Assembly (NCBI GenBank): GCA_000934665.2
Contig: JYFJ02002930.1
Coordinates: forward strand, 1-48,616
Length of the DNA: 48,616 nt
DNA from: Catajapyx aquilonaris
Lineage: Eukaryota
Reading direction: 5' to 3'
The position numbers were made by a program, and so were the translations under genes. Under the pieces are notes generated by a model that saw nothing but the letters and a program-made list of their open reading frames with translations, had not been told where the DNA came from and ran no database searches. Below, piece by piece: positions 12,986 through 38,019 of this stretch; the stretch's first letter is position 1, and the number at the start of each line of letters is the position of its first letter.

Positions 12986-13337
12986 TGGCTGGCACAGTGG
13001 ATTCGAGGGCTGGGTGGAGAAGGATTGGGCTGCTTATCGTGGTCACTCCCACGCGGTCAGCTTCCTCCTGGAGTCCAGCTGTAGTCATCTTCAGAAACAA
13101 CAACTGTGAACTACGTTTCACTAATTAATGGTAATATTTATCTCCACCTTAGGATACACCACCTTCACCGGGGAGATTGTTCGGCCATTGGGGGCCACGG
13201 GCCCCTACCAGCGCTACAGCCCATCACACGAGGTGATTACCTGGACAAGTAGCTGCTGCCGAGAGGGCAGAGTAGAAGTGACATGTTTTTCACTGGTTTT
13301 ACTTCATCCTAACGACATTTTATACATGTGGTTTTAG

Positions 13338-13421
13338 GATCCAAGCCTCCCTGTGCCCAGATCACACCTCTTTGCGAGGACGTACCTCCCAGCGAGGGGG
13401 AAGAGGGGGCTGCCGCAGCAG
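13338..13421 (+). other. Phase-0 exon-like module (DPSLPVPRSHLFARTYLPARGKRGLPQQ)
   Basis: TCATCCTAAC branch-like site, GTTTTAG acceptor, 84 bp, CAG|GTGCGT donor. Confidence 0.5.
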
Positions 13422-13914
13422 GTGCGTAGCTACTTGACAATACACAGGATGATTGACAGCATAAATAAAATAACTCTGGTTGAGTTTAACTGTATTTGAA
13501 ATCTGGTGAAGTCATGTAAAGGCATAAAAGAAAATGCAATGATAAGATCTTCCTCGTGACATCATCCTAATGACATTATAAATGTGATTTTAGGCTGCCC
13601 AGCCACCGCTGCCATTCCCACAACGATGCCCGATATTAATGTGAATTAACATGTTAGATGTTGCCAAAATTGCATTTTTGTAATATGTAAATTGTCTTTG
13701 TGAATGAGACATGAGTGTATGTCTGTGTATGATATGTACAGGGCGGTAAGAAAAGTTTCCACTCCCTCTCAGATCTACACGGTGGCCCAAAAGTTATGTT
13801 ACAAATTTCAAGATCTTAGTGGATCTGAATGGAATTCATTTCCAATGATTTATAGGCTACCCATCTCTGACTAACTGATCAGTGATCATATTGGTCCTAT
13901 GGGGGAGGTGTGGT

Positions 13915-14195
13915 GGCCAAGCAGTGCACGACCACATGTAACTGCACATGTTGACGAAACCAACTGCAATACTACCTAAAAATGAAGGGTGGAACACAAT
14001 CATAAAGAGTAGGCAAAATGAAGGTGCTCTCCTCGAAGAAAAGAAATACTTTAGCCCTCGTATTACTCATAATTAGCATGACTGTGCAATGCAGGATTTC
14101 ATACAGGATCAAGCAGAATGGGGTCTAATGGTCTTATGACGCATGTCAAATTACTTTTAAAAAACCAAGCCATTAAAAGGACCCACATATGCCTT
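13915..14195 (+). repeat. Duplicated block (paralog ~23069-23363)
   Basis: GCCAAGCAGTGCACGACCACATGTAAC...CCACATA(T/C)GCCTT is near-identical in both places. Confidence 0.9.
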
Positions 14196-14463
14196 CGAGG
14201 ACGACACAAGGGTGGTGATGCAGTACAGCCGCCAAGAGGTCGATGCGGGCAAAAGGGCTGACGAGGCCCGGGGGTCAGGGACCTCCTCCATGGTAAGCCA
14301 ACATTGATAAGCGCTCATCGTGAATTATTGAGGCTACCCGTTTCAACTGGACTTGCAGCCTTGAAGCTCATGAGGGAAGTTCCAGAAGCTAATCTCTTGG
14401 AATTGACGCTACCCGATTCAACTGGACTTGCACCCTTGTTGACAGTTGTCCAATGCTTGTAAA

Positions 14464-14507
14464 ACCATCTCTGACGAGTCCTTAAAGGACGAAACGCGTC
14501 AGGTGGT
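14464..14507 (+). ncRNA. Minimal type-I hammerhead ribozyme (Penelope-like-element/retrozyme type)
   Basis: ACCATCT-CTGACGA-GTCC-TTAAA-GGAC-GAAA-CGCG-TC-AGGTGGT. Stem I is ACCATCT/AGGTGGT, stem II is GTCC/GGAC, the CUGANGA and GAAA cores are intact, stem III is the palindromic ACGCGT, and the GUC cleavage triplet ends at 14500. Confidence 0.9.
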
Positions 14508-15566
14508 AACGAACTAAGTAAGGATGACTATCAACATTATGGATCAATACACGTTGTTGGAGGAATCGATGATGTAGAAGGTGTTTTTTGACCCGCCGTC
14601 CCCTGGGATAGTTACTTACCTAACCTTATGTCCGTCATGGATGGCCAGGGGCAGACGTGGTGTCCGGCAGGCGCCAATGAATTCATTCCACCGGATTTAC
14701 AACATGTACTTCAGGCATCAGAGTTACGACAACAAGTGCCACAGGCTACAGGGTCTGCTGTACAATATGGTATGCCTGCCCAGACCGTTGCAGCACCACA
14801 TAAGCCTCAAACTCCTAGGTCTTATGTGCAATATGGAGTATCTGACCAGAATGTTTCAGGACAACGTACACGGTTACAATGGGCTTTCTGGGACAAGGAT
14901 GTGACGTTGTTTCAGCCTAGGCGGTGCTGGAAAAATTTGATGTGCCAACTTTGAACATGTTGGAGCAAAAATAAAAATAAAAACAAATCCGGCATTCCCA
15001 TTCCGTTTCCTCCCAGCTCAGCTCCCACGTCCCACCTCCAAAAGTGAGTATCAATTTGAAATCTAATGTGCATAATGCAAACATAGTACTATACTGTATA
15101 GGTAGTTTTTGCGCTTCCATAAAAAACTATGTAAAAGTAGAAAATACAATCCACTTCCAACAGGTTGACACCACTAGTATGCGATCAATACGGCGAGTGA
15201 CACACGCCTTCAATCGGGGAAGAAGCGATGTCAAATACAATCGAGTCATCCTTGATACCAGTAGCCATGGAAGATAAATCGAGAAGGACACAGAGCGAGA
15301 CAGGGTTGCATGAGCCGATTGAATGTCAATCATGACATTTCTGTTGATGTGTAAACCTGGTTGCCGTTACCAGTAGTAACACAGTCGCATAGTCCACTGA
15401 AATAATGATTGTGAAAAAGAGTGTTTTTAAATTTTCTTAAACACTCATATACTACTTGCAAATGAAGCACTGTTCTGAGTTTTGAATGGAATCTGAGTCA
15501 GCTAAATCACTGTCACGCTTTGGTAACAACGCTTCCCACAAATGTGTCGGTGTGCAATGTCCAGTG

Positions 15567-16095
15567 ACATTTTGAGACGCATCATAAGGACAAGTAAGAC
15601 TGTCTAAAAGGGAACGTGAGAAGTGAAAAAATACAGGCTCTAAGGAGGAACTTTGTTGCCCAACAAAGCATATTTACACGACATTTCCAATCTAACGAAG
15701 CATCAGTTAGAGCTAGTTTTAAGGTGGCGCAATTGACCGCAGAGAAGGGTAAGCCGTTTTCTGATGGGGAATTTGTGAAGTCATGTGTGAAGGCTGTCAT
15801 GGAAGAAGTGTGCCCTAATAATACAAATTTGATCAATGATCTGTGCCTATCTGCTCGTACTATCACTAGACGAGTGAAAGATATCGGGGACCATTATTTT
15901 GTTAGATAAGTTGCAAGAAAGGGCCAAAATGTTCACATACCATTCAATTGCACTTGAGAGCAACGATAGGGACAGTGCTCAACTACTAATTTTTGTAGGG
16001 GGAATAGATGATAACTTTCCGATCACAGAAGAACTCGCAGGACTTGCAAGTATGAAAGGAACTACAGGGGAAGACTTGTTTGTGAGAGTCTGTCA
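15567..16095 (+). pseudogene. hAT transposase remnant, GTF2IRD2/SPIN-like, N-terminal part
   Basis: HFETHH..ASFKVAQLTAEKGKPFSDGEFVKSC..VCP..LSARTITRRVKDI..HSIALES.D..DSAQLLIF..EEL..MKGTTGEDLF. Confidence 0.9.
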
Positions 16096-16736
16096 AGTTA
16101 TAGATGTCCGTGCTTTCACCATACGCGTTACATCCACTACTCACATCAGGTTAGTGACAAATATGCCAAGCAAAGCCAGTTGCCTTAGAAAGACACGGAA
16201 GGCAAAATATGCAACGGATCATGATAGCAGAGACGTGAAATACAAGAATCCAGTGACAAGGGGGAAAAAAAACAATCAGACACATCGAGAGGCAATACGA
16301 AAAAGGCAGAAAAGGTACGATACAGAGCATCGGGAGTACATAAGGTAGAATTGCAGAAACTACAAGTCAGAACATCGAGAGGTCATAATCATGAGTCATA
16401 ATATACAATAAAGAGAACATAGTTAATAAGGAAGAAGGTTAAGCATCAGGACTGGAGACGGAAGCTGGCAGCGGAATATTGCCAGAGAGGAATGATCACT
16501 CGCATCCATAAGGCCTTGCTGATTAGAAGCAGGCAGAAGAAAGGAGACGGATTGGGCAACGGCGCTTCCCAAAAGATTGCCCAGCATATGGTTCTAAGGG
16601 CGCTTGATAAGAAGCGACTGCTCTTCGCTCTCGCAAGCGGTGCCTGGCAACTGTGCAGCAGAGCCTGGCGGTTGGACATCTCAAGACAAGTGCGAAGAGT
16701 GCCTCATGTACAGTACGCATCACAATGACGAAAATC

Positions 16737-16775
16737 AGGCGGAACATGAAGGCGGAACATGAAGGCGGAACATGA
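16737..16775. repeat. 13-bp tandem repeat AGGCGGAACATGA x3
   Basis: Three perfect adjacent copies. Confidence 0.95.
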
Positions 16776-18559
16776 AGCAAAGGCAGCAGCTGCTGCGAGA
16801 GCAAAGTACCAAGAGGATTCTGCTATTGCATATAACAACATTGCCGTTAAAAAGTCATGCTCTTGACATGTACTCTGCAAATGGAGAGAATGTAACAGTG
16901 AAACGGCCGGTCATTCTATTGGGTTCAAAAACATCCCTATGAAATATATTTTGTTTTCCTAATGTTCAAAGGCACAGGTCTGCAGGCAAGGCTGCAAAAT
17001 AGAAATGATGAGACGATCAATTCCCGTAGCTTATGCACCACCACAGTTGATAAGAGAGTGACTCTGTTTATCTGGTTTGTCAAATCACTTCGAATAACTT
17101 TTGCGTCTTATAGTAATGTTTGGGCTGCCGTGGGACCAATTTCTTCCCGACTCGACTGTTGAATCGTCCAATGCAATGGCTACGATCTCACCCGAATAGA
17201 AGGCGAACTGCCAGCCAACAACTTTAACAAAATGACCATGTCCTTGACGAAATTGAGACGTTTGACGACGTTGAGTTCAGCTACCTGTCTTACGACAAGG
17301 AATAGATCCATTGAAGCAACCCGGAACTGTCCGTACGGTAAATAATATTCAGACTGGCACAGATCCGGCAACACAAATACGTTACACTTCAAGATAAATG
17401 CTGGACAGACAGATTGTCTACAGTCTCTACACCATACACTATACGAAGATCCTAGGCAAGATGGACTGGTTTAGGTAAATTGTTTATGGGGAAGATGTGA
17501 TAACCAGATCTGGCAAAGAATATTCAACTCTACAAAGGTGATTGATGGGGACTCGTGGTTAGATCTCTCCAATGTCTAGTGGTTGCCTGTAACCAAACAA
17601 TAATTACGACTGATTACACATGTTAGGTAATGAGTCTGTGCACTTAGTTTTGGAGTAGATTCGTCAGAACTTGCCTGCTTTGGAATCGAGCCCAACAGAA
17701 CAGTAAACAAAACCACTGTCAAGATGTTGCATGAAATATTCACGACGAAAGCTGCAATAGCACCTTCTGTGCCTCTTTCGATCAGTATGACTATATAAAA
17801 GCTAAAACCCATGATGGGCACTATGAAAAAAGGTAGAGAAAAATCAAGGGTACCCCGTAGCATCGGGACCCATCGTCCACTAGGCGGATGCAGGAAGAAA
17901 ACTGATCCAAGAGCTGATCGTAATCCGGTTTGACCCATGCTGGTCGCAAATGTTGTGACATATGTTGCTAATGGCTCGGTTAATTTCCTGCAGAATTTTG
18001 CTAATTATCACTGCCAAGTAGGCCACATGCGTCATGAGTGGGCCAATAAGGAACTGCGCCACACAAGGATGAAAAATGAGACGAAGAGTAAATCAATGTT
18101 TGCTTCGCGCAATATTTCATCGACGACAATGCAAAAAGTGCTTATAAATATGAAGATCATGCACAATATGACCATTGTTATCGAGTATGTTCGCAACGTG
18201 GATTGGTTTAATGAGTCACCGATACCAGCCTGGATTCACAAATAATAATGCGCCAACTGAGTTTAAGTCTGCATTAGAATCAGCACTAGCCATGGACCCA
18301 GCACCACAACCGAAACATGACACACGAAAGCGATTCTCTCCGTGGATCCCATAGTAAATGTCTCTGCCACTATTGGTATTCCACACCAGCTGTAGACGGT
18401 CACATAGGCGACAAACGTGGCGACATGAATTAAAACCGGCCATCACTTGAACCACTTCCTTTTCCCAAAATCTGGCAAGTCAAGAGTCAAAGGGCACTGC
18501 AAATATCCACCGACAGCAACATTTGACTAATTCAGGGATATATTTCTCTCCTCCTCCGG

Positions 18560-19050
18560 ACTTTAAGCAGCAGCAGCTGCTGGAGGGACTGCAACTGATT
18601 GAGCAACACCAGCAACATTTGCGGCAACAGCTACAGTTCTCATCATCTTCATGTTCAAAGAAACGACTCCGTATATTATCAGCAGCACGACAGTCAAACG
18701 AATAATCTGCTCTTGCTCCGTTTTGAAACTTGTCGTACAGTTGGAAAGGCCATGGCATATATTACAAAAGCTCTCCCTAAAAGTAAGCTGCATTTCCAAA
18801 TGTTTGTGCTTGACATGAAAGGCAGCAAAGACCTCAGGGTAGCAACTCAAATCACTTGCTCCATGCATCTAATCCTAAGCTGAAAATTCAATTTGCAGAA
18901 AGAACACTCGCAATAATAATCAACTTCTCATCCAACTGGCATGAGCAATAGCCACACATTCCAAACAAGTAAGCAAGATGACGAGGAGTATCACGATCCT
19001 TATATTGAAGTGGCCTCCAACAGGGCAATAATTATGCTTCTGTAGTTACA
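18560..19050 (+). repeat. Duplicated block with a CAG/Gln-rich segment (paralog ~40740-41275)
   Basis: Near-identical from the CAG-rich tract through GCTTCTGTAGTTACACT. It includes TVGKAMAYITKALPKS, which is reminiscent of DNA-transposase N-termini. Confidence 0.9.
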
Positions 19051-19051
19051 C

Positions 19052-19120
19052 TGGGTTCGAATCCCGGGGCCGGCAACCCTGACCGTGGTTTTCTGTGATT
19101 TTCCACGGTCTTTCTAGGAT
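19052..19120 (+). mobile_element. Truncated tRNA-derived SINE fragment
   Basis: Pol III B box GGTTCGAATCCC (19054-19065) followed by CTGACCGTGGTTTTCTGTGATTTTCC, a typical arthropod SINE body. No A box or cloverleaf. Confidence 0.6.
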
Positions 19121-19220
19121 AAGATATCTCAGTCTCATATTACTCAAATAATAATGCTGCCATGTAGATTCCAGTGGCATTTATTCATCCTAATGACATT
19201 ATTAATGTGATATTATATAG

Positions 19221-19298
19221 GGTCGGACTGCCACCTCACCGCCCAACCCTGCTGTTGCCCCCGGGTCCACCTCCTGTCCTGGAATGAGTCCCTCCAAG
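19221..19298 (+). other. Phase-0 exon-like module (GRTATSPPNPAVAPGSTSCPGMSPSK)
   Basis: TCATCCTAATGACATT upstream, ATATAG| acceptor, 78 bp, AAG|GTGAGT donor. Confidence 0.6.
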
Positions 19299-19891
19299 GT
19301 GAGTTGCTCCTTTACACATAAAGTGTTTTGGCACGAAAGTCTCACCATAAGTGACTAATCCGACTATAATATTGAAACCAATATTGCTCAATATATACAC
19401 CAGTATTTATCCAATATTGCCACAAGATATATTGCTACACGGGGCAGTGAAGAGGAAATTAAAGGTAGAAGTGAATTTAATGCACTTGAACAGGAACGAA
19501 TTAGAGCCGAATAAAATAACAGAAAGCGAATGGTGCAGTGGTATTGGCAACGAATTGAAGTTGAATGGAATAGAATAATTGAATCAGCTGCAACCTACCA
19601 AGATCTTCGTGGAACTTAATGGAATTCATATCCAATGATTTATAGCCTACCCATCTCTGGTTGATCTATGATGATCAGTGATCATGTTAGTCACAGGGGT
19701 GCAGTCATTCTATGAGTATGCATATCTGTTTCGATTCATAAAATCTCAAATTGTCCTCACTTTTATAACACTGATGCATATTATCTTGGGTTGGTGAAAT
19801 GGGTCCCAAGTCCACTTGTGTTTGTTCCCTCTTAAGAAACAACTGCGAGCAACGTTTGCCTCATTCATGGAAATATTTCTTTCCCCCTTAG

Positions 19892-20035
19892 AATTTCAAC
19901 ATGGTCAGGAGTTCCCGGCGGAAGCAGCAGCTGATACCTCTAAATCTGCCTCCGGGTCTCTGGTGGGGGACCCACCCTCCCTTCTATGCGGCGCAGTTGC
20001 AGCAATTAGCACAACAGCAGCAGCAACTACTGCAG
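19892..20035 (+). other. ATG-bearing exon of the unrecognised family (MVRSSRRKQQLIPLNLPPGLWWG..QLQQLAQQQQQLLQ)
   Basis: The CCTTAG acceptor ends at 19891 and ATG is at 19901, the same 9-nt spacing as at 988/997. The donor position is uncertain. Confidence 0.55.
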
Positions 20036-20942
20036 GTGGAAGTGACGTGGGCTGTATTTGTGTCAAGATGGTATAACGAACTCTGTTTACTGCTGAATAT
20101 GTAGAAATGTGGCTGTGAAATCCAAATGGCTCCTACAGATAAGGTGATCATGTTGCAGATGCAGCCCATTGCATCCAAATTACTGGAAAACTCTCAGTGT
20201 GAAGGTTGAGATCTGCGATGTTTGAAAACACAGTTGTACGCGTACAGTAGTTGAAGTAATGAATTGAGGAGCTCCGGAACAAAATGGCCTATGTCACGAA
20301 AAAACCGAAAAAAGTGGCAACACTGCATAAATCTCCAGTGTGGATGCAATGTATGTCTGATTCAGCCGGAACAAAATGGGCCATAGAGTCATCAGGCGAC
20401 ATAGGTGAAAATTTGATTCCGGATCAAGATGGGCTATATGTAGGAACAAGTTGGCGGAACAAAGTAGACTATGTCATTCAGCCATCTTGACGCATGTGCA
20501 GTAGATTGTTAACCACAATGGCAGCCGGCAGGACGGGCGCGTGACTGCAACCAGTGGAGAGGTACGTCCCAATTGACGGTACAGAGTTATCACTTGATTA
20601 ATCTGCATTGCTTTGTATGAGACCCAGCCGTGCTCAGGTTTGTGTGAATAGCCTTTAAAATGCATTCCTTTTCTCAGGCACAAAGTAACAATGGATGACC
20701 AACCTGTAGGTGATGATGACTTCAAACGCGTCCAGGATCTCCAAAGTGAAGGGACGCGTGGAAGGAAGAGGGCGAGACAGGCAGAACGGCCCGGAAGAGC
20801 AAATGGTGAAGAAGAAAACTTTTAAATGTTTCCCTTCGTGAATTGTTTCTAGGAAGGGGCAGTTGATGAGAGACCCGAAGTACCTGCACTTCAGTTCAGC
20901 GATGTGTAAGAAACAATAATAGCAATTCTATTTTAAGGGGAG

Positions 20943-21000
20943 CAGTGGCGTATCTAGGGTGGGGCAGGTAGGGCACATGCCCTGGGCGCCATGAAGGCGC
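20943..21000 (+). mobile_element. Solo hAT-type terminal sequence (CAGTGGCGTATCTAGGG..GCCCTGGGCGCC)
   Basis: Resembles hAT/MITE ends. I did not find a partner TIR. Confidence 0.4.
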
Positions 21001-25569: not shown

Positions 25570-26393
25570 GTCCTCATCCTAACGGTATTTTAAATGTGTT
25601 TTCAGTCGCCCAGCATACTGGTAACCGCCTTCTCCTCGCCCCCAGGGGCAGACATCCCCGCTGCCTCCAGCCCAGCCACCTCCATCAAGGTGACCGCTGC
25701 AGCCGTGGCGGTGGCCATTGACGCTGCCATGGCTGCCTCCACCTCTAAGGTGAAGTTGACATGTGAAGGGTGTTGCCAAAATGACACTTCTGGCACAAGT
25801 AAAACTGCTTTGTAAATGATTCATGAGCGTATGTCTGTGTATGATATGTATATACAGGGTGATACGAAAGTTGCGCACTTGCTCTCAGATCTAGATTCCT
25901 TGAAATATTATGCGCGAAAAATTCGTCAGGTTGAATTTGTTGGAGTTCGTAATCGGGGTAATAGACATTTCAAAGGGTTCACATCAGCACATGGAGTAGC
26001 CCTGTAAGCCACTCTAATAGGAGTGGCTTATTATTGTTAACCTGAAACACACTCACATCAACTTAGATAGCTTAGGATTGAGTTGACTTTTCTGACCAAC
26101 AAATTTTCTCCTTAGATCGAGATTGATTTTGAGCATACTAGTCACATCTCATAATAATGCGTTTGTAGGCTCAATCTGCATCTGCCTTTCCCTCCCAATC
26201 CACTGCTGCAGCCGCCCCCGCCCACCAGCGTAGTGGGCGTCTCCTCCTCACCTGTGAAGAGGCCCTCCGAGGTGAGTTTCTCATTGACGCGTATAGAGTG
26301 TTGGCACAATGGCACTGTCGCCTAAAGTAAAACGGCTCTGTGAATAATGTTGAAGTCTCGTTACACATGACAGGCAATTCCTCCATGAGGGAT
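25570..26393 (+). repeat. ~820-bp duplicated block with two exon-like modules (paralog ~35435-36254)
   Basis: Colinear copies. The first exon is 25606-25749 vs 35463-35606 (both 144 bp and open). The second is 26169-26271 vs 36023-36132, and each of those carries a frame-disrupting indel. Confidence 0.9.
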
Positions 26394-27530
26394 GGACCGA
26401 TATGACCATAGAGCAAGTTTTGATGAGAAACATGAAGACGGTGGGTGGACTCACACGTGGACGTGGATTGACGGATAACGTCATTGCTCGATGGGTTTGT
26501 GCCATGCCTTCATCTGCAAATGTAATAGACGCCACCGAAAAGTTTTGTGGAGTCTTCGCCGAATCCTCCGACCAACATGCGGAGCTAAGAGAGTCTCGTA
26601 AAGTGAGAGATAAGCCAGACGTGCGCAAGATGGGAGACTGGCTACAGTCACACCATCCTTTTAACAACTCAACGAACCTTCAAGTGTCCTTGTCTACCGG
26701 TGTAGTATAGCCGACAATACAGTTAACTGTGATGAGGCTCTCTCCCGTGGTTTGCAAGCAATGAAATCAATCACAGGTCAACGATTCAGTAACGTCCACT
26801 TAAAACGAAACGAACGATGCTTCGCCCTCAACATCACCCCAAGGAGCGTTTTTGGCAAATGTTAAAAACAAAGTGCGATTCATCGCTTTGCTATCAAGGC
26901 ACCTCATGGAAGCTGGAGTCAAGACCATTCAAGCCCCAGGTGACGCGGATACTGTCATAGTGAAGACTGCTGTGCAAGCTGCTGACAATGGTGCGGCGTC
27001 AGTGATAGTAGGCGAGGACAGCGATCTTCTCGTCCTGATGGCAGCTACATTCAGCCCGGGAACCAACGTCCAAATGCTGATGCCGGGAAGAAAGGATGCA
27101 TAAGTCCGGGTCTTCAGTAGTGAAGAGCTAATCGCGGCTCTTGGAGATCTGCGTAACTACCTCCTGTTTTTCCATGCAGCAACTGCATGTGATACCACTT
27201 CTGCTCCATTCAGAAAAGGCAAAAAGGGATCTTTCAAGAAGTTCAAGCGAGACGCTTGTTTAAGGGAAACAGTGTCGGTCTTCAACGTATCTAATGCTAC
27301 TCACCAGGCGAACGTTTTCTTCTTGCATTGTACGGATGTGAATATGAAGACAACTTAAACAGCGCCCGACATCGGCTCTACCGGAGGACAGTTGCAAAGC
27401 AGTCCGTCAAAACAACGTTTGATGTGGCTACATTTCCCTCTACATCTGCAGCTGCCGAACAAACATTCATACCGAGTTTGGATCAAGTTTGGATGGGGAA
27501 TCGCCTGCCGGAGGCAGAGTGGGGATTTCT
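26390..27530 (+). pseudogene. Remnant of an unclassified invertebrate DNA-transposon-like ORF
   Basis: Motifs DMTIEQVLMRNMKTVGGLTRGRG, HHPF..LSTGV, NK.RFI..L, APGDADTVIV, VGEDSDLLVL, CDTTSA.F.KGK, P.TSAAA and QVWMGN..EWG, broken by stops and frameshifts. Confidence 0.6.
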
Positions 27531-27878
27531 ACAAATTTTTAGCTTGCTATTTCAAATGTCCGGGTCAATGTCTAATTATACCGTACTAGGCTGTTTGCTC
27601 TCTGGCTAAAGTAACCTAACCTAACCAACCCACAGCAGCAGTCCGACCGAGGAGAGGATCACCATCTTCGGCCATCAGCAGCACGCCGGAGCACCTACCA
27701 GCCCCGGAACGACCCTCCAGGATTCGCCGCACCTCAGAGCAGCATAGAAGTCACCTCCACCGCACAGCCCTGGCAGCCTTGACCATGGCCGCCTAGAGAA
27801 GCAGCTTTCCGCCCCGGGGTACGTCAGCTTGAAGTAGCATAACCTAACCACGACGCTGACAGGAACACTCCCTCCGGA

Positions 27879-28730
27879 ATGGAAGCCATCCGCCACCTGA
27901 CCGCAGCCAGCTGGAAGAGCGCCCAAGAATTTATTCAGTGCAACACGACCCAAGGAGAGATGGAAACCGACATCCGCAGCATCCACCTGACCAGGCACGT
28001 GGCAGACAAGCATGCCCGTGTATTCGACGCAGACTACTCTTTCCCCGAAATCAAACCTGTCCTGTGGGATTATTTCCAAGTCCACGCTCAGTTCACTCCC
28101 AATCCTATCCAGGGGGACGCCCCCCATCCCTTTGACCCCAAAGGACCCATTCCCGGCCAAGTGCTTGCAATCTACAAACAAGAACTTCACCAGCGTTCCC
28201 ACCTGGACGACCTGGAGAGAAGTATCGCTGCCATGGACCCGTACCACAATGTAAACATGCCGGACAACCATTACGTCCCCAACATACGACAGATGCCTCC
28301 GGGGTATTTCAACGGTGGAGACGCAGCAATGAGGGTTTTTGGCATCGAACTGACCTCCTTCCACTACACCCACAAACGTTGGCTACTTCTGGACACCATT
28401 GCGCTGAAGCGGGAGAAGTGGGCACTACTCACAGAGGAGGAGAAGGCCAGCGCACAGCTGGAGATGGACCGATGGAAGACATACCGGGTACCGAGATACC
28501 TTCGCAGCCAAAAAACCTTCATGGAGCAGCCCAAATGCCGCTTCCCAAAAAAGTATGTCACGCTACAGATGGCAACCACCACCCGCCTACAGCCGTCAAC
28601 AGCCACCCTCCACCAGCAGCCATCCCGCCCGAATTCCTCTTCGCACCCCACATGGCCCAACCCCAGAGGGGGAGACAGGAATCGGAGAGGACAGCAACGC
28701 CGCCCGGGGGAGCAACAATACTCATCTTGA
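27879..28730 (+). CDS. Hypothetical 283-aa protein, no recognised family; basic, low-complexity C-terminus
   Basis: Longest ORF in the window, uninterrupted, with an ATGG start and a globular-looking first ~225 aa. Confidence 0.5.
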   Translation: MEAIRHLTAASWKSAQEFIQCNTTQGEMETDIRSIHLTRHVADKHARVFDADYSFPEIKPVLWDYFQVHAQFTPNPIQGDAPHPFDPKGPIPGQVLAIYKQELHQRSHLDDLERSIAAMDPYHNVNMPDNHYVPNIRQMPPGYFNGGDAAMRVFGIELTSFHYTHKRWLLLDTIALKREKWALLTEEEKASAQLEMDRWKTYRVPRYLRSQKTFMEQPKCRFPKKYVTLQMATTTRLQPSTATLHQQPSRPNSSSHPTWPNPRGGDRNRRGQQRRPGEQQYSS

Positions 28731-28907
28731 GGAGGACGCGGACCCGCCAACTACGGGACAGGCCAACCAGGTCCAGCACAGCATCACCGAGACCCACAAG
28801 GAGCAGGACGATCCATGCCTAACCAACTTCAAGCCGCCACGCAGCAGCACCCACCAGATACAGCGGCAACCAACCACTACAGCCATCGGGACCCCCGGAG
28901 ATCAGGA

Positions 28908-29181
28908 GGTTTGGTTTGGTTTGGTTTATTAGGAAGAAGCCAAAGCAACTGTGGCTATCTGGCTGTAGAAGAAGCAAAGGTGGGACAGATGGAGAGAGAA
29001 ACGAAGAGGAAAAAGAAGAGAGGAAAGACTGGCATCTCTCTTAGTCTGTCTCCTATCCCACAGACCTGTCCGGCTTGGGAGGCCCTACCAGTAGACGAAG
29101 CTACCGCCGGCATAGCTCTTGGGGTCACGGGAGAAACGCAAACCCCACCACCACGATAAGGTGGAGATACCATCGGGGGGG
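28908..29181 (-). mobile_element. Short non-autonomous retroposon: RTE-like 5' head plus (AAACC)n tail
   Basis: The minus strand begins CCACCTTATCGTGGTGGTGGGGTTTGCG..TGACCCCAAGAGCTATGCCGGCGG..GGTAGGGCCTCCCAAGCCGGACAGGTC, like the conserved RTE LINE 5' UTR. It ends ATAGCCACAGTTGCT..AATAAACC(AAACC)3. I did not see a clear TSD. Confidence 0.7.
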
Positions 29182-29862
29182 CTTGCGTTGCACGTATAAG
29201 CCCTCTGATTGGTCCGCCCCCGTATTGTTGCCGCCACCTAATCCTATTGGCCCCCGTCCATTGTTGCTGCGTCGTATCCAAGCCCCCGTCCCGCAACACC
29301 CTTCAGATGTGGGTACTGCGGGCAGGGTACGGCCCACTGACCAAAACCGGGATCTGGACCACAGCTTGGGACACCCCCACACACCGGAATCCAGTTCCAG
29401 TGCTGTCCAGCAGCGAGCTGCAGACCTGACCACCCGGTTCCTACGAGACACCTTAGCCTCCATGAGCCTACAGCGCGACGACCATCCCGTGGACCCAGCA
29501 TCCCACGCCACAGCTTGGTGGAACGCAGCACCCGCCTACTAACGCAGCCTCCTTTCCACGGGACACGCATCCCAAATCCCACGATATCCGCTCCTTCCTG
29601 ATACCAATACGGAAACAGGGCTCTGCCCCTGCTATCTCGGCAGCCAACACCACTCCCCTGCCATCCAGGATACACCCCGCACCTCCGGACACCGCCAGTC
29701 CAGCACACACCAGGAGCAGCCAGATCCTGAAAGCGGTCATACCAAGACCGACAGAAGTATCCCGGGAGATACAAGCAGCACCTCCGTCGAATCGGACCAA
29801 TGCAATCGGTCGTGCCAAAGAAGAGTGGCTTCACCGAATGAATAGTCCTGAAGGCAAACATT

Positions 29863-30228
29863 ATGGGCTTCGCACCACCCACTGCAACCGCCATTACACA
29901 AGCCCTGTCCCCGGTCTGGGAATCCATAGAGGAGCTTCTCCCTGCCGAGGACAGGACTGAAGCCAGACGTCATTTCTTCCTGACAGACCTGCCCACACCC
30001 CGCCCTCAGTATTCACCACTCCCTTCAAAAAGCTGGTTCTCATGGATTGGGAACCAGCCGGACATCTCCACCCTACCGACATCCCTCACTCCACTTGCCA
30101 ATCAATTTACCAAACTGCTGAACCTGCCCCCCCTCCCTGAACTCAAAACCATCCTGGACAGAAAACTGGCCACCCCCACCATCAAAGTCAGACCCCAAGT
30201 CCGCATTATTTACACAGTTTTGCCTTGA
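29863..30228 (+). CDS. Hypothetical 121-aa Pro/Leu-rich protein of the GC-rich island
   Basis: Intact ATG ORF followed about 80 bp later by AATAAA (30308). Confidence 0.35.
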   Translation: MGFAPPTATAITQALSPVWESIEELLPAEDRTEARRHFFLTDLPTPRPQYSPLPSKSWFSWIGNQPDISTLPTSLTPLANQFTKLLNLPPLPELKTILDRKLATPTIKVRPQVRIIYTVLP

Positions 30229-30799
30229 TCCCCCCGGGGGAGTGTTGCCCGGGTCGTGGTCATTGCCTAATCCGCCCCTCCCGCCCTCCTTCCCCCAAAT
30301 CACCCCAAATAAACACCTTTTCACATACACCAGACAACGCAACGCACCTCCCACTCCCGCCCGCCTCCCAAGACCGTGGGGCCATGGGGCCTTGATTACA
30401 AGTAACCTAACCTACCCTACCGAGCGGGTTCGATCTTCGATGCACTCTGCTCTGCCCCTGGGCCGGTGGCCCCCTTCGTCAAGCTGGGAATCCCATTAGG
30501 GAAGTTCCAGAAGCTAACCTTTTGGAATTGAGGAATGGGTATGGCTGGGCTTAATCCCAGACAGACTGAAAGTTAAACACACTATTCATTTCATTTGGAT
30601 TCAGGTCGTCTCCCGCCAAGATTGATTTAGTCATGTCATGCGTCCAAATCTTCCCACTTGTGACCAAGCTAGGTGACACATCTTTCAATTTTCCATGGCA
30701 AGATGTGGTGAAAGCCACAGAAGAGAGCTGGACCTGGGCATACATATGCTGCCCTAACAAATTACACTAACCAAGATCAAAAGAACAACAAAGAACGAC

Positions 30800-31085
30800 A
30801 TCAATGTCTCCAACAAAGAAGGCAGCGGTGCCATCGGTCCTGCAGGTGCCCCAGCCACGGCCAAGCACAAGTCGGCCTGGTGGAAGAAGACAAGGTGATG
30901 CGAGGGGGAGGAAGAAAGGCTGTGATGAGGACTGGACCTGCCGTGATTGCCAGAAGAAATACTCGTCAGACGTGAAAGACAAAAATTGAGCCAAGTGGAC
31001 CACGTGTTGCTATTGCTTGTTTCATTACCATGCTACATGCCAAGACACTAGCGACACTGAGGACATTTTCATGTGTACCGGCAGG
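30800..31085 (+). pseudogene. PHD-finger C-terminus typical of pogo/Tigger-type transposases
   Basis: DEDWTCRDCQKKY..*AKWTTCCYCLFHYHATCQ..DIFMCT gives a C-x2-C..W-x2-C-x2-C..H-x2-C pattern. Confidence 0.55.
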
Positions 31086-31399: not shown

Positions 31400-32110
31400 A
31401 TACTTCTCTACATTAGATTTAACTCTGGTTATTGGCAGGTAAACATTTCTTCGGACGATCGTCCTAAAACAGCTTTCTCTACCCCTGTTGGAGGTCTCTG
31501 AGTTCAACGTGCTCCCTTTTGGGCTAGTTAACGCACAGTCTACTTTTCAACGACTCATGGAGCAGATCTTAGCAGGACTGACGTGGGAAAAATGCCTCAT
31601 CTATCTAGATGACTACTGGTCTTTTCATCAACTTTTTCGGAGCATCTTCAACGCCTTGAAGATGTGTTCCTTCGGTTGCAGACTGCAAACCTAAAGATGA
31701 AACCAGCTAAATGTCAATTCGCCTTATCCGAGATTAAGTATCTAGGTCATGTGGTGAGTCAGCAAGGTATTCATCCAGATCCTGGGAAGATAATAAGTGT
31801 CACCGCTTTCCCCCAACCCAAAACGGTAAAAGAGGTCCGAGCATTCATCGGCCTCGCCTCATATTATCGCCGTTTTGTGCCAAAGTTTTCCGAGGTCGCC
31901 AAACCTCTTCACGCTTTCACCAGTACGAAAGCCACGTACAAATGGGGAAAACAGGAACAACTTGCTTTTGACACGTTGAAGCAGAAACTAACTACAGCTC
32001 CAATCCTTGCATATCCCAGATTTACCGAGCCTTTTCGGATCTACACCGATGCCAGTGGTATCGGTATTGGGAACATCTTAGCCCAAATACAAGACGGCAA
32101 AGAAAGCAGC
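31400..32110 (+). pseudogene. Gypsy/Ty3 LTR-retrotransposon reverse transcriptase and start of RNase H (fragment)
   Basis: YFSTLDL..GYWQV..DRPKTAFSTP..FNVLPFGL.NA.STFQRLM..YLDD..KCQF..YLGHVV..F.GLASYYRRFV..TAPILAYP..YTDASG. Frameshifted, no LTR seen. Confidence 0.95.
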
Positions 32111-34293
32111 TTCTAATTGCAGGTTCTGGTGCATTATTATGCTTATTGCCACGAACAAATCATGCCATAAAATGACAGCAGTCAATGAAAACATTACTTC
32201 TATTTTCTTGCCCTGGCAGACATACTGGTGAAGATGATGAACCCCTACGGTTCGAACTAATATGCAATGCTTTTGGGATGCAAGGAAGTACTCTTGTGGC
32301 TCACAACAAGCCCGCGCGCGAAAAAAGCATCATTAAAACAACCCTCGCCCTGGGGCCGAGAGATGTCTCCTGCCTTCCCTTCTATCCGAGCTGTGAGAAA
32401 CGGTGCGATATCAAACACATTCATCCTACGTTGCATTGAGGACTATGACTTGAGGACCAAAAACCATAACCGACAATGACCCTTTCAAGTTCAGTTTCAT
32501 ACTTTATTGCATCAACAAACTAGTTCAAACTCAACAATGTTTCCAACGCTGTCAATAATCACTGTGTAACTTCTTACTCCAGCCATATTTGCTACATTTT
32601 GGAACCAGTAATTCAAAATAATACGAGGAGGAGCTGATTCCAAAGAAAAGATAGACGCATTGATTAAAGAAGATCCAGACGCACATTTATGTCCTCAATC
32701 AGCAAGGGGTTTCACACCCAAAATTACAACCTGGACAGAAGGCGAGCGTCCTAGCATAAAGAGTACAATACAAGGGTATAAAGGGTACAATACCCACCTC
32801 ATGTAATCCACATATTAGAACAAATAAATTCACAATGCGCCACAAAATTATCCAGATTGAAGGTACATATGAAAAAAGAGTAGACACCTTAATTACAGCA
32901 AACTGAACCGAGAGGAGGTGACATCTTACCCTTGAACCAGGGGATTGAAATATAAAATCAAAACTGATGAAAAACTTTCTGATGAAGCATGACGACTCCG
33001 CTGCAATCAGGACAGGTCCAACTTGGGCACCATCCAAAAGCAGGTGGCAACATCCGACTCCTTCTCTTCCACCAATGTGGTAGATGTGGCATGTAGCGAT
33101 GGTGTATATCACACCATAGAAGTTAGAGCAGTTAACTTGGTCAACATCTGACAAATTATTCCGATGTGAGTGCAGCATCTGATACTTTTGCTTTCTCTCA
33201 CAGAATATTTCATTGACTGCCTTAATACATTGCGTTAGAGGAAATCCAACATGATGGACAGAGTCCAGACACAGGGAATTAAACAGCCCTTCAGCGGACT
33301 TGCTCTTCAGATACAACGTAGCTCCTAAAAAAATTGGACCCACATTATGAAGTCATGAAGAGACACATTAGCTGCATGGCCGCAGTGACGAAGAATATCA
33401 TGGACCCCCAAATATGGCAACATGTATGAGATCCATACATACTGTATGTTGCAGAAGAATATTTAAAAATACACTACGCTTTGGAAAACACACCCATCAT
33501 TTGTCACGTTTCAAGTTTGCTCACAATGTAGCATACCTGGTAAATGTGTATCATGGGAGGGAAATGCATCAAGTTACGAAGAATGGTTCTGAAGTCATTC
33601 AAAATATTATTCCAAATGATTCTACAATACCATAGACATAACAGACCACCAAGACTCTTTACAACGCGTGAAGTTTGTCACACGAAAGTCGTAACAAAAC
33701 GTCATTTTGGAATTACACATCTCTTGATTGCATGCCAGAAATTTGGTTAATTCCACAATTGTTAAGGAATGAAACGGAATATTTGTACCAAGATTACCCG
33801 GTGGGGGCGACATTAAAAGGTTACATAGTGGTCAAAATTTAAACCGCATGGCTTTATGAGTAACGAAATTTAAAATGATTTCCCCCTGTAACCCTCGCAC
33901 ATGTCCGTCTCAAAGATTCAACCATTCTTATCACAAGAGATGAAAGTAAAATGCACACATGATACCAAAACAATATGGACCACGACTAAATAGAGGTGAA
34001 ATATTATTCATCAATTGGGAACTTTCTGGAACAATTGGAGCTTGTAGTAACCGCCAGACACATTTTCCGAGTTAGCGAAACGGCACAGTTACATGCAATA
34101 AAATATTACCGTCTGGTACATTCAGTTGCAGTAACATCGAAAACTGATCATTTTATCTTTCAAAAAGAGGCATTGACGGATGATCGAACTGAAGATTTAA
34201 TGTGCCTTATAGAGCCTTATAGGAACGTGGGGCAGGTTGTAATACTCTCAGTTCTCCTGTCCTTTCCACCACATTGTTCCCATAAAATCCAGC

Positions 34294-35375: not shown

Positions 35376-38019
35376 TTTTATTATTAATATTTCTCTCCTC
35401 CTTAGCATTTGACAATGGCCCCCGTCAGACAGTCCCTAATGGTATTTTAAATGTGCTTTTAGTCGCCCAGCATAGTGGTCACAGCGTTCGCCTCACCACC
35501 AGGGGCGGACACCCCAGCAGCCTCCACCCCTGCCACCGACATCCGAGTGACTGCAGCAGCCGTGGCGGAGGCCTTAGAAGCCGCCATGGCTGCCCCCACC
35601 TCTCAGGTGAGGTTGACATGTTAAGGGTGCAGCCAAAATGACACTTCTGGCACAAGTAAAACTGTTTTGTAAAAGAATCATGAGCGTATGTGTGTTCATG
35701 ATATGTACAGGGTGATACGAAAGTTGTGCACTTACTCTCAGATCTCGATTCCTTGAGATACTATGCGCGAAAAATTACCCAGGTTGAATTTGTTGGAGTT
35801 CATAATCGGGGTAATAAGACATTTCAAAGGGTTCACATGAGCACATGGAGCAGCCCTATAAGCCACTCTAATAGGAGTGGCTTATTATTGTTAACCTGAA
35901 ACACCATCACATCAATTTAGATAGCTTGGGATTGAGTTGACTTTTCCGACCAACAAATTTTCTGATTAGATTGAGATTGATTTTGAGCAGACTAGTCACA
36001 TCTCATAATAATGCGTTTGTAGGCTCATCTGCCTCTGCCTTTCCCTACCAATCCACTGCTGCAGCCGCCCCCACAGTGGAGCCCACCAGGGTAGTGGGCG
36101 TCTCCTCCTCATCTGTGAAGAGGCCCTCCGAGGTGAGTTTCTCATTGACGCGTAGAGGGTGTTGGCACAATGGCACTGTCGCCTAAAGTAAAACGGCTCT
36201 GTGAATAAAATGTTGAAGTCTCGTTACACATGACAGGCAATTCCTCCATGAGGGACCTGTGATTGGGGAAGGTCTACCACAATCGAAAGGGATCTCAAGA
36301 TTAGTAGGATAATATGGCCACAAAGAAAAACAAGAGGATGGCAGACAAAATACGGGACACCAAGCATGGTCCTAGGAGTGTCCGGTATAAGGCGCAGTGT
36401 CCATGGGCAATTACCCAGGACTTTTGACTGTCAAGGGCCCTTTTCAACCAGCTGGCAATGCGGACTTGCAGAGACTGTACGCCCATCGTCCAGGGCCGTC
36501 GTCGACATCGGGATGTGACAGTTGCATTACAGAATAAGAGTGCTGATCATGAGAACTCATCATCCAGAACCTTCCTTGACTGCATTGCCACCAAGCACTA
36601 CAGTAGACCATTTTGTAAAAACTGAATATGAAAAGGCTTTCTGGCCTGGCTATCGTTAAGTCCATATGACTTTATGAAAGTAAAAATCAACACCAGAACA
36701 TGTTACAAATGAGAAATTGTTCATTGAAATTGTACATAATGTTAATTTGTAGGACGGTTTTGATTCCCCAGGGCGACGCTTGGGCCACACCATAATATTA
36801 TGTAGGGAATTTAAACCGGAAATCGAACAGTAATAAACCAGGGCTAAAATTGCTACCGTTGACTACATTCAATGAATCCTATTACAACGACCTTCCACTT
36901 CACTCCTTATTGTGATGCCTCCAACAATGTCCACCTAATTTCCCTTCTTCTCCCTGGCCCCTCATCCACATCAATACATACCTAATTTACAAGAATTCAT
37001 CAGCCAAAATGCTACCAAGCTGCTCCAATACTCCTTGGAATGGTCCTTGGAAATACACAAGATGCTAAAACCGGAGCATGATTTAAGAACTAACTCAGAA
37101 GGTGACTACAGAGAGTTTGCTTGAATATGAAGTGGCTTGCATCAACCTTGTGCCCCTTTCACCCATGTTAGTATTAAATCAGGATTTTAAGGTGATAATT
37201 GAAAACAAGGATTGACGCTCATCAAGCAATCAAGATGGACATAATCCAACATGGCGGTATCTTAATCCTGTCTGTATCATTTCAGGATGCTGGGGACCAG
37301 CCGCAGCCCCCCCCCCCCCCCGCGGTGGTAAGGGGAAGAAACCTCTCAGGTGGTGGTTGCCGGAAGTAAGTACTTCTTCAGCACTAGCTGAAGAACATTG
37401 ATAGTCTTTGAAAGAGAATTGTCATTGTGAAATGTGAGGCCTACAAGGTGATCTTGAGGGGGCTAATAATCATATAGAGGTCACGTGGTTACACTGTCCA
37501 AAAATCAGTACAGCAGGTGTGGAAAGTTAGGAAAAGAAAGCCAAGTAATGTGGAGAACTGACTGATTGGTCTTCGTCCGTGTAGCTTCATGTTTATCTGA
37601 ATTGATGGAGAGGAAGATGACGTGCTTTGCATAATTTTTAGGCTGGTAAATGTTAGTGTGATTGCGAAGTAAGAAAAGCGAAGCAATGGAAATATTGAAT
37701 TGAGGGGTGTTTCTTCCCCCTTACCATTAACATTGTGCTACGTTTGAAGACAATATTAATTGGTGCTTGATTGACATTAAGTAAAAATCAGAATGAAGTT
37801 CATGATTTGCACGGAACCTTCCAGTTTACCTAATACTAGCGTCATATGATGTAGTTAGTTCCTAAAAGTATTGCATCTTGGTTTGTCCAATGCACCCCTA
37901 TGTGTCTGCACACATTTCAAACAAACAGCCTGATATTTAACTTGTATTTTGCAAAGTATTTTGTAATGTGAGAAATTGCTCACACATCTCCTGTTCCCAA
38001 TATTTAATAAAGGGATGGA

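What the first reader, a model, noticed from the sequence alone, without database searches (positions are those of the whole stretch)
27609..30531. Well-preserved GC-rich orphan island with TAACC-bearing direct repeats and overlapping open frames
Seen: composition is sharply different from the flanks. AAGTAACCTAACCTA occurs near both ends, 2.79 kb apart, and TAACCTAACC occurs at 27840. There is an intact 283-aa ORF, a ~165-codon ATG-poor open frame (~29466-29960) overlapping a 121-aa ORF, and AATAAA at 30308. I see no RT, transposase, Rep or tyrosine-recombinase motif. Established: TAACC is the complement of the arthropod telomere repeat TTAGG, and endonuclease-less Penelope-like elements associate with telomeric repeats. 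Inference: a young non-autonomous element or an integrated unit-length small-virus-like genome of an undescribed type.
Basis: partly seen in the sequence, partly recalled or inferred. Interest (0 to 1): 0.72.

Follow-up and report, generated by a model that had tools for sequence, protein, structure and literature searches.

The report
Broken endonuclease-less Penelope retroelement fragment
This GC-rich stretch is the single-copy, damaged front half of a two-gene Penelope-like jumping element that lacks its own DNA-cutting enzyme, with pieces of three other repeats wedged into it; the copy is dead, but its intact relatives look like an undescribed branch of a known telomere-associated kind.

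Summary
The composition, TAACC repeats, frames and AATAAA are there, but the island is neither intact nor orphan. It is the 5' part of a two-ORF, endonuclease-deficient Penelope-like element (PLE). ORF1 has 38 matches in this genome. In fuller relatives a 600-700-aa ORF1 overlaps, in the -1 frame behind an A AAA AAC/T heptamer (5 of 5 junctions), a ~700-aa RT that ends where GIY-YIG begins in its outside hits. Hammerhead motifs, TAACC tracts and ORFs lie co-oriented in chains. A metagenome contig has the same layout. Here the 283-aa ORF ends at a premature stop, the 'ATG-poor frame' is more ORF1, and the 121-aa ORF fuses ORF1's end to ORF2's start. A SINE, a Helitron-like piece and a TIR fragment (holding the AATAAA) are foreign. 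The RT core is gone and depth is single-copy. Telomere targeting is inferred, not shown. The scan noted this family before on other DNA of this genome (e1-7832799). Clade placement against Athena, Coprina and MjPLE01 could not be tested.

The parts
27609..27630 (+). TAACC tract (about 4 units) at the 5' truncation point; left copy of the 22-nt direct repeat
   Evidence: homology to sister 3' ends starts at 27626-27633
27631..27850 (+). 5'-truncated terminal repeat (pLTR; a copy of the element's 3' end) ending in AACCTAACC at 27841-27849; the hammerhead motif that the sister on C3448 has about 150 nt further upstream is cut off
   Evidence: 87% to C3448, 84% to C1119, 69% to C9800; those copies stop at or just after this point; hammerhead core on C3448, none in the island
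27879..28907 (+). ORF1, 5' part: conserved ~230-aa helical domain, then a P/Q/R-rich linker; premature stop at 28728-28730 gives the '283-aa ORF'
   Evidence: 38 matches in the genome; 75% over 285 aa to the C9800 copy, through the stop to 28907; 57 synonymous against 11 non-synonymous codon differences in 150 codons
28908..29180 (-). High-copy SINE-like insert with an (AAACC)n tail; target duplication seen at other copies, absent here
   Evidence: 39 other matches at 96-99% among 40 scored of 1740 candidates; flanks of 8 copies printed; depth 41,000-84,000
29181..29280 (+). Fragment from near the 5' end of another high-copy repeat (Helitron-like label is recalled, from its TC start), cut on both sides
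   Evidence: 39 other matches at 92-100% among 40 scored of 566 candidates; shared 16-nt start missing here
29281..30030 (+). ORF1, 3' part, spread over three frames; includes the 'ATG-poor frame' (29466-29960) and the first half of the 121-aa ORF
   Evidence: 77% DNA to C9800 over 29353-29670; tblastn in frames 2, 3 and 1; alignments to C9141 ORF1 residues ~440-574 and ~571-635
29995..30202 (+). N-terminal ~70 codons of ORF2, fused in frame to ORF1's end because the junction differs from the intact relatives; all RT motifs missing
   Evidence: E 8e-14 to C9141 ORF2; residue alignment; no RT-profile hit anywhere in the window
30203..30395 (+). Internal piece of the long inverted repeat of an unrelated repeated element; holds the AATAAA at 30308
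   Evidence: 40 other matches at 79-95% among 40 scored of 105 candidates, with inverted pairs on 4 contigs; those copies continue on both sides; depth 720-1,330
30400..30421 (+). Right TAACC tract, 20 of 22 bases identical to the left one
   Evidence: junctions bridged by one contig in each of 3 runs
30488..30531 (+). 44-bp piece matching window 14363-14406, which lies ~100 nt before a hammerhead motif of another PLE remnant
   Evidence: 89%; hammerhead at 14471

Best explanation
The island is a dead, single-copy remnant of a two-ORF, endonuclease-deficient Penelope-like retroelement, of the subfamily best represented by contig C9141. SHOWN for the family: layout pLTR-AACCTAACC-ORF1-(overlap, -1 frame, A AAA AAC/T)-RT-3'UTR-hammerhead motif-TAACC; no GIY-YIG; purifying selection on ORF1; co-oriented chains of different subfamilies separated by TAACC tracts. 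INFERRED mechanism: ORF1 is a structural or RNA-packaging partner made in excess; RT is made as an ORF1-RT fusion by -1 ribosomal frameshifting; the RNA's 3' AACCUAACC pairs with an exposed (TTAGG)n 3' end at a telomere or a break and primes cDNA; the copy is often 5'-truncated and capped with new TAACC repeats. SHOWN for this copy: TAACC cap, truncated pLTR, ORF1 with a stop and frameshifts, two inserts in ORF1, ORF2 cut after ~70 codons and joined to a foreign fragment. INFERRED: it arose as a link in such a chain or at a break, now lies among internal transposon debris, and lost its RT and 3' end by deletion. Identity about 0.95; frameshift use about 0.8; priming on TTAGG ends about 0.7; origin of this copy at a true chromosome end about 0.4.
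For: ORF1: 38 matches of 46 candidates, open frames up to 841 aa. RVT_1 in 4 of 4 ORF2s scanned, over the curated cut-off in 3; no GIY-YIG family. ORF2s end where the GIY-YIG of P0001 and P0002 starts; a GIY-YIG pattern flagged no ORF of 200 aa or more in 37 loci. ORF2 model's top Foldseek hits are human telomerase (E 1.5e-8). -1 frame with an in-frame slippery heptamer in 5 of 5 junctions computed. Strict hammerhead descriptor: 10 hits in 98,944 bases of 18 loci against 0-1 in 20 shuffles. All ORF1, RT, hammerhead and TAACC features share one strand within each of 12 contigs. AACCTAACC on the sense strand in 15 of 25 ORF1 loci, antisense in 0 (the 25 include this window and two contigs counted twice). 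Same layout in metagenome contig L142, a 4,845-bp unit repeated head to tail. Published mechanism for EN-deficient PLEs: passages of PMC3846280, PMC6431247, PMC8557442.
Against: No chromosome end is shown: the assembly has 20,583 contigs, and (TAACC)12 occurs at only 8 places, 4 beside PLE pieces and 4 in other contexts. TAACC tracts also sit in non-PLE repeats. The island's right end is a foreign fragment, not a PLE 3' end, and the shared AAG before both tracts is not this subfamily's terminus, so the right tract is unexplained. A stable hairpin behind the slippery site was found in 1 of 5. Of 10 junction regions printed, 4 lack the heptamer (one altered, three at broken or early ORF1 ends). 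Group II intron RTs score nearly as well as telomerase in the fold search (E 5.4e-8). The closest fuller relative, C9141, runs off its contig before the ORF2 stop, so the lack of endonuclease in this very subfamily is extrapolated from sister subfamilies.
Confidence: 0.87

Rival explanations
1. Same identity, different origin: the 2.79-kb piece entered an internal TAACC-bearing site in one event (break repair, or PLE RT copying an already chimeric RNA), and the 15-22-nt repeat is a target-site duplication. The family would then use internal TTAGG tracts and breaks as much as telomeres.
For: 20 of 22 bases identical at both ends, including AAG outside the pentamer. The left tract shares 21 of 21 bases with a small non-PLE repeat on C4635 and C17352. 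Published EN-deficient PLEs can prime at double-strand breaks (PMC3846280 passage).
Against: No copy of an empty site or of either flank was found. Three matching bases next to two telomere-type tracts are weak evidence (about 1 in 64). The left tract sits exactly at a pLTR truncation, as caps do in the chains.
Confidence: 0.25
2. A young non-autonomous element whose unit is 27609-30421, moved in trans by the family's RT.
For: Direct repeats at both ends; relatives with open ORF1 and RT frames exist in the genome.
Against: Single-copy depth of 18-30, like the flanks. No second copy with these ends. It lacks the hammerhead and the family's 3' end. Nearest ORF1 copy is 83% identical in DNA.
Confidence: 0.03
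3. An integrated unit-length genome of a small circular virus-like agent, joined at the repeat.
For: Size near 2.8 kb and a terminal direct repeat; L142 shows that family units can assemble as a head-to-tail repeat, which a circle would also give.
Against: A fifth of the island is host repeats. The rest is ORF1 and the ORF2 start of an RT element. Relatives carry a telomerase-like RT and hammerheads, with no capsid, Rep or integrase seen.
Confidence: 0.01
4. The truncated 283-aa ORF1 has been kept as a host gene or a dominant-negative restriction factor.
For: The stop falls after the whole conserved domain, which is unbroken and models well (pLDDT 78); synonymous excess against the C9800 copy.
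Against: The synonymous excess is expected from selection on active elements before this copy inserted. The locus lies in transposon debris, and the upstream pLTR is truncated.
Confidence: 0.04

Closest known systems
Athena / Terminon, endonuclease-deficient PLEs of bdelloid rotifers (passages of PMC8557442, PMC6431247, PMC3846280; the primary papers were not read)
   Same: Two ORFs with a frameshift between them, RT without GIY-YIG, hammerhead near the 3' end, reverse-complement telomeric repeats on the sense strand, 5'-truncated copies capped by repeats, head-to-tail chains.
   Different: Athena is called rotifer-specific. The repeat here is TAACC. The hammerhead lies about 150-450 nt before the TAACC end, not directly beside it as described for Terminons. 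Units are 5-8 kb, with no accessory nuclease or esterase ORFs seen. No named Athena protein came up in two RT searches (only 8000 candidates scored each).
Coprina, EN-deficient PLEs of fungi, plants and protists, including two-ORF Coprina-1_Alen (passages of PMC13159263)
   Same: No endonuclease; flanked by telomeric repeats and direct repeats; Coprina-1_Alen has an ORF1 with a coil and disordered regions before the RT ORF.
   Different: Animal host by the earlier scan note; typical Coprina has one ORF; no frameshift is mentioned in that paper (0 occurrences); clade membership untested.
MjPLE01 of kuruma shrimp (Koyama et al. 2013; not held; known only from citing passages)
   Same: An EN-deficient PLE in an arthropod, living beside EN-positive PLEs.
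   Different: Its ORF layout, repeat and sequence could not be seen; one paper calls it Neptune-like, another Coprina. It may be the nearest described relative.
SART/TRAS of Bombyx (passage of PMC4700185)
   Same: Two-ORF retroelements tied to TTAGG repeats.
   Different: They cut TTAGG with their own endonuclease domain; this family shows none and has a Penelope-type RT and hammerheads.

Membership tests
Penelope-like elements | RT of the PLE/telomerase group with DKG-type, YGLPKxHK and thumb motifs | tested here: met
   In relatives only; best outside hits are GIY-YIG-bearing PLE proteins; telomerase tops the fold search. This copy has lost the RT.
Penelope-like elements | Terminal direct repeat (pLTR) before the ORF and at the 3' end | tested here: met
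   C9800: 97 bp identical, 7,887 apart; window 27631-27850 matches 3' ends elsewhere.
Penelope-like elements | Hammerhead motif in the terminal repeat | tested here: met
   Family: 10 strict hits against 0-1 shuffled. Not in this copy. Cleavage not tested.
EN-deficient PLEs (Athena/Coprina type) | No GIY-YIG endonuclease | tested here: met
   C9141, the closest subfamily, is cut by its contig end.
EN-deficient PLEs (Athena/Coprina type) | Reverse-complement telomeric repeats at the 3' end and at 5' truncations | tested here: met
   TAACC on the sense strand only. That TTAGG is this host's telomere repeat is assumed, not shown.
EN-deficient PLEs (Athena/Coprina type) | Location at or near chromosome ends | tested here: inconclusive
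   Fragmented assembly; (TAACC)12 at 8 places, none shown to be terminal; this copy is internal to a 48.6-kb contig.
Athena / Terminon | ORF1 joined to RT by a frameshift | tested here: met
   -1 overlap and slippery heptamer in 5 of 5 computed junctions; sequence evidence only.
Athena / Terminon | Pseudoknot behind the slippery site | tested here: inconclusive
   Only nested folding was run; z below -2 in 1 of 5.
Athena / Terminon | Coiled-coil ORF1 | tested here: inconclusive
   Model has long helices 91-117, 141-181 and 186-209; best matches are generic helical hairpins, Z at most 6.8.
Athena / Terminon | Telomeric repeat directly downstream of the hammerhead | tested here: not met
   About 150-450 nt lie between them, against the description in PMC6431247.
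Athena, Coprina or Neptune clade | RT falls inside the named clade in a phylogeny | not testable with these tools
   No named reference RT was returned by any tool; 8 family RTs form one group (100/100) apart from 6 unnamed outside proteins, with long branches.
Small circular virus | Rep, capsid or viral polymerase gene; circular form | tested here: inconclusive
   No match at E<=0.001 among predicted viral structures, none in viral contigs, no circle joint listed; blanks do not exclude, but the ORFs have a positive assignment elsewhere.

The most novel reading that the evidence does not exclude
The family is an undescribed deep clade of two-ORF, frameshifting, endonuclease-free PLEs that builds Terminon-like chains on TTAGG telomeres outside rotifers. 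It has diversified into many subfamilies in one genome (ORF1 domains down to 18-35% identical), occurs in a second source (L142), and has an ORF1 whose helical domain matches no known family or fold.
Probability: 0.4. Interest if true: 0.55.

Novelty: new variant of a known kind. Interest (0 to 1): 0.33.

Why it matters
The locus itself is ordinary debris. The family is of use to people who study where telomerase came from: PLE RTs are its closest relatives, and the two-ORF frameshift layout is described for Athena, called rotifer-specific. An independent or sister lineage on TTAGG ends, with open-frame members (C9800, C8445, C9891, L142), would let one test endonuclease-free priming on telomeric overhangs and the role of ORF1 in a second animal group.

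Tried and rejected
Pfam on 8 island frames: nothing at E<=1; on 9 relatives' ORF1 and 2 other ORFs: one weak unrelated hit. Rfam on 27300-30900: one chance match, E 0.72. Homolog search of the 283-aa ORF: 0 of 188 candidates, lengths 155-496 only, so ~640-aa relatives could not appear. Atlas: no usable hit for the window ORF; MULE-like rows at 0.76 for P0008, below the level of a lead, rejected. ORF1 profile: 2 hits in 1.84 billion representatives, nothing below E 0.66 in PDB sequences. ORF1 model: no Foldseek match at E<=0.001 in PDB or viral structures; VIA-align best Z 6.8 on helical hairpins, residues 88-190 only, so neither a fold assignment nor proof of a new fold. Viral contigs: 4 pattern hits, none confirmed. 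Sequencing runs: no RNA holder listed; no joint from 30400 to 27609 among the 15 of 17 joints shown, and contigs drop rare forms. Hepadnavirus-like core, considered from size and overlap: dropped once the RT and ORF1 relatives appeared. AATAAA as the island's polyadenylation site: rejected, it belongs to the foreign fragment. Flank stretches 27527-27612 and 30422-30487: no match among held loci. Literature: searches with TTAGG + Athena + arthropod gave 0 papers; searches gave no description of this family; two key papers are not held, so this is no proof that it is unpublished.
Full report
OBSERVATION. The stretch 27609-30421 is 57.4% GC against 44% for the window. The 15-mer is at 27609 and 30400, within a 22-nt repeat that has 20 matching bases; a third, looser copy lies at 27832. 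The 15-mer is rare: 13 places in 286 Mb against 1 for the reversed control. The other 11 places are unrelated small repeats and tandem arrays. So the pattern is real, but the repeat does not define an element.

FOREIGN PIECES. Three parts belong to other repeats. 28908-29180 is a minus-strand SINE-like element: 39 other matches at 96-99% among the 40 candidates scored, with target duplications visible at other copies and none here. 29181-29280 is a cut piece from near the start of another repeat (39 other matches of 40 scored, 566 candidates). 30203-30395 is an inner piece of a long inverted repeat (40 other matches, inverted pairs on 4 contigs), and it holds the AATAAA. Together they are 566 of 2813 bases. 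Contigs of three runs from one sample, which may be the source of the assembly, bridge each outer junction of these pieces. They give depth 18-30 on the ORF parts, as on the flanks, against 41,000-84,000, 13,000-21,000 and 720-1,330 on the three inserts. The labels SINE, Helitron-like and TIR rest on tails, termini and duplications seen here plus recall; no library confirmed them.

THE REST IS ONE ELEMENT. The 283-aa ORF has 38 matches among 46 candidates in the genome. I fetched 20 of these regions. In C9141, C9800, C8445 and C9891 an ORF1 region is followed by an overlapping ORF of 686-726 codons with RVT_1 (4 of 4, three over the cut-off). The C9800 sister is 75% identical over 285 residues and reads through the position of the window's stop. 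Over 150 codons the two differ at 62 third positions of 76 changed bases, 57 synonymous against 11 non-synonymous codons. The 'ATG-poor frame' aligns to C9141 ORF1 residues ~440-574. The 121-aa ORF aligns by its first half to ORF1's last 65 residues and by its second half to ORF2's start. No RT-profile match exists anywhere in the window. The 220 bases before ORF1 match ends of other copies at 69-87%, which stop at or near the AACCTAACC of 27841: this is a pLTR, cut at its 5' side exactly where the left TAACC tract sits.

THE FAMILY. The best outside RT hits are 21-25% identical (8000 candidates scored each). P0001 and P0002 carry a GIY-YIG domain that starts where the family's ORF2s end. A GIY-YIG pattern flagged no ORF of 200 aa or more in 37 loci. 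The ORF2 model (pLDDT 62.5, core 80-95) has human telomerase as its top hits, with group II intron RTs close behind. In 5 of 5 junctions computed, ORF2 is in the -1 frame with an in-frame A AAA AAC/T heptamer at ORF1's end; a sixth locus shows the heptamer too; a strong hairpin follows in only 1 of 5. Four of 10 junction regions printed lack it. A strict hammerhead descriptor hit 10 times in 18 loci (two hits are one repeated unit) against 0-1 in 20 shuffles, and not in the island. In 12 contigs, ORF1, RT, hammerhead cores and TAACC runs all share one strand within each contig, often as chains of different subfamilies. Three tiny contigs show a 3' end, 12-15 TAACC units and then a new truncated piece. 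AACCTAACC is sense in 15 of 25 ORF1 loci and antisense in none. An ORF1 profile found 2 proteins among 1.84 billion. One leads to metagenome contig L142: ORF1 599 aa after AACCTAACC, the same heptamer, a 728-codon RT frame without GIY-YIG, a hammerhead, and a 4,845-bp head-to-tail repeat. In RT and ORF1 trees L142 groups with some of this genome's subfamilies, and the window's ORF1 pairs with C9141 (97/98); long branches make the outer joins unsure. The ORF1 domain models as long helices (pLDDT 78) with no specific fold match.

MECHANISM. Published EN-deficient PLEs prime cDNA on exposed telomeric 3' ends or at breaks, and telomeric repeats are then added to the truncated 5' end (PMC3846280, passages). 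They form head-to-tail chains with a hammerhead and reverse-complement repeats at the 3' end (PMC6431247, passages). ORF1 can be set off by a frameshift, and Athena is called rotifer-specific (PMC8557442, passages; supplement search and one part). Hammerheads in pLTRs are general to PLEs (PMC4209133, passages). The anatomy here fits that model. Frameshifting, ribozyme activity, priming and the role of ORF1 are inferred. That TTAGG is this host's telomere repeat is assumed from general knowledge: (TAACC)12 occurs at 8 places, 4 beside PLE pieces and 4 elsewhere, none shown to be a chromosome end.

WHAT STAYS OPEN. The right TAACC tract follows a foreign fragment and shares AAG with the left tract. 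It may cap the next, unrelated link of a chain: a 44-bp piece 70 bases further on matches the region before another PLE hammerhead at 14471. Or it may be a target duplication. No empty site was found.

COMPARISON. It works like Athena and Coprina and meets the tested features of an EN-deficient PLE. It fails one Terminon feature (repeat directly after the hammerhead). Clade membership could not be tested, as no named reference RT was returned. An EN-deficient PLE is already known from an arthropod (MjPLE01; paper not held) and a two-ORF Coprina from a fungus (PMC13159263, passages). Added here: open-frame members, the conserved -1 junction and a second source.

VERDICT. A dead patchwork copy of a known kind of element; the family may be an undescribed branch. 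Interest 0.33.

Noticed in passing
window 14363-14900 (+): A second PLE remnant: hammerhead at 14471, ACCTAACC at 14618, then an ORF start resembling the ORF1 of C13252, broken after about 100 codons.
   Followed up: partly
window 36936-37004 (+): A third, heavily decayed ORF1 fragment of the same family, same strand (E 2.8e-5). All PLE remnants, the left-flank nuclease remnant and the Gypsy-like RT lie on the + strand; this could reflect an old chain or a strand-biased transposon cluster.
   Followed up: partly
window 27785-27796; L003 1413, L046 947, L087 1655, L092 1506, L088: A three-codon mini-ORF (Met-Ala-Ala-stop) is conserved in the pLTR of 6 of 6 related copies checked, about 55 nt before the AACCTAACC end; uORF or RNA structure, unexplained.
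   Followed up: partly
window 26171-27526 (+): Decayed XPG/PIN-like nuclease ORF of a probable DNA transposon (Pfam hits below cut-off; Academ-like label is recalled). It is cut at 27526, where the copy on C12290 continues.
   Followed up: partly
window 31443-32116 (+): Gypsy-like RT fragments with frameshifts (label from motifs by eye).
   Followed up: no
L142 (metagenome contig): Complete-looking 4,845-bp unit of the family repeated head to tail; tandem array or circle cannot be told apart.
   Followed up: partly
L047 4215-7980 (C9800); L051 4081-6195 (C8445): Very long 3' regions (up to 3.7 kb) filled with tandem repeats of 68, 294 and 19 bp between the RT stop and the hammerhead.
   Followed up: no
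L095, L099, L105: Small inverted-repeat elements with an inner TAACC tract, on C255, C4635 and C17352; two share 21 bases with the island's left end.
   Followed up: partly
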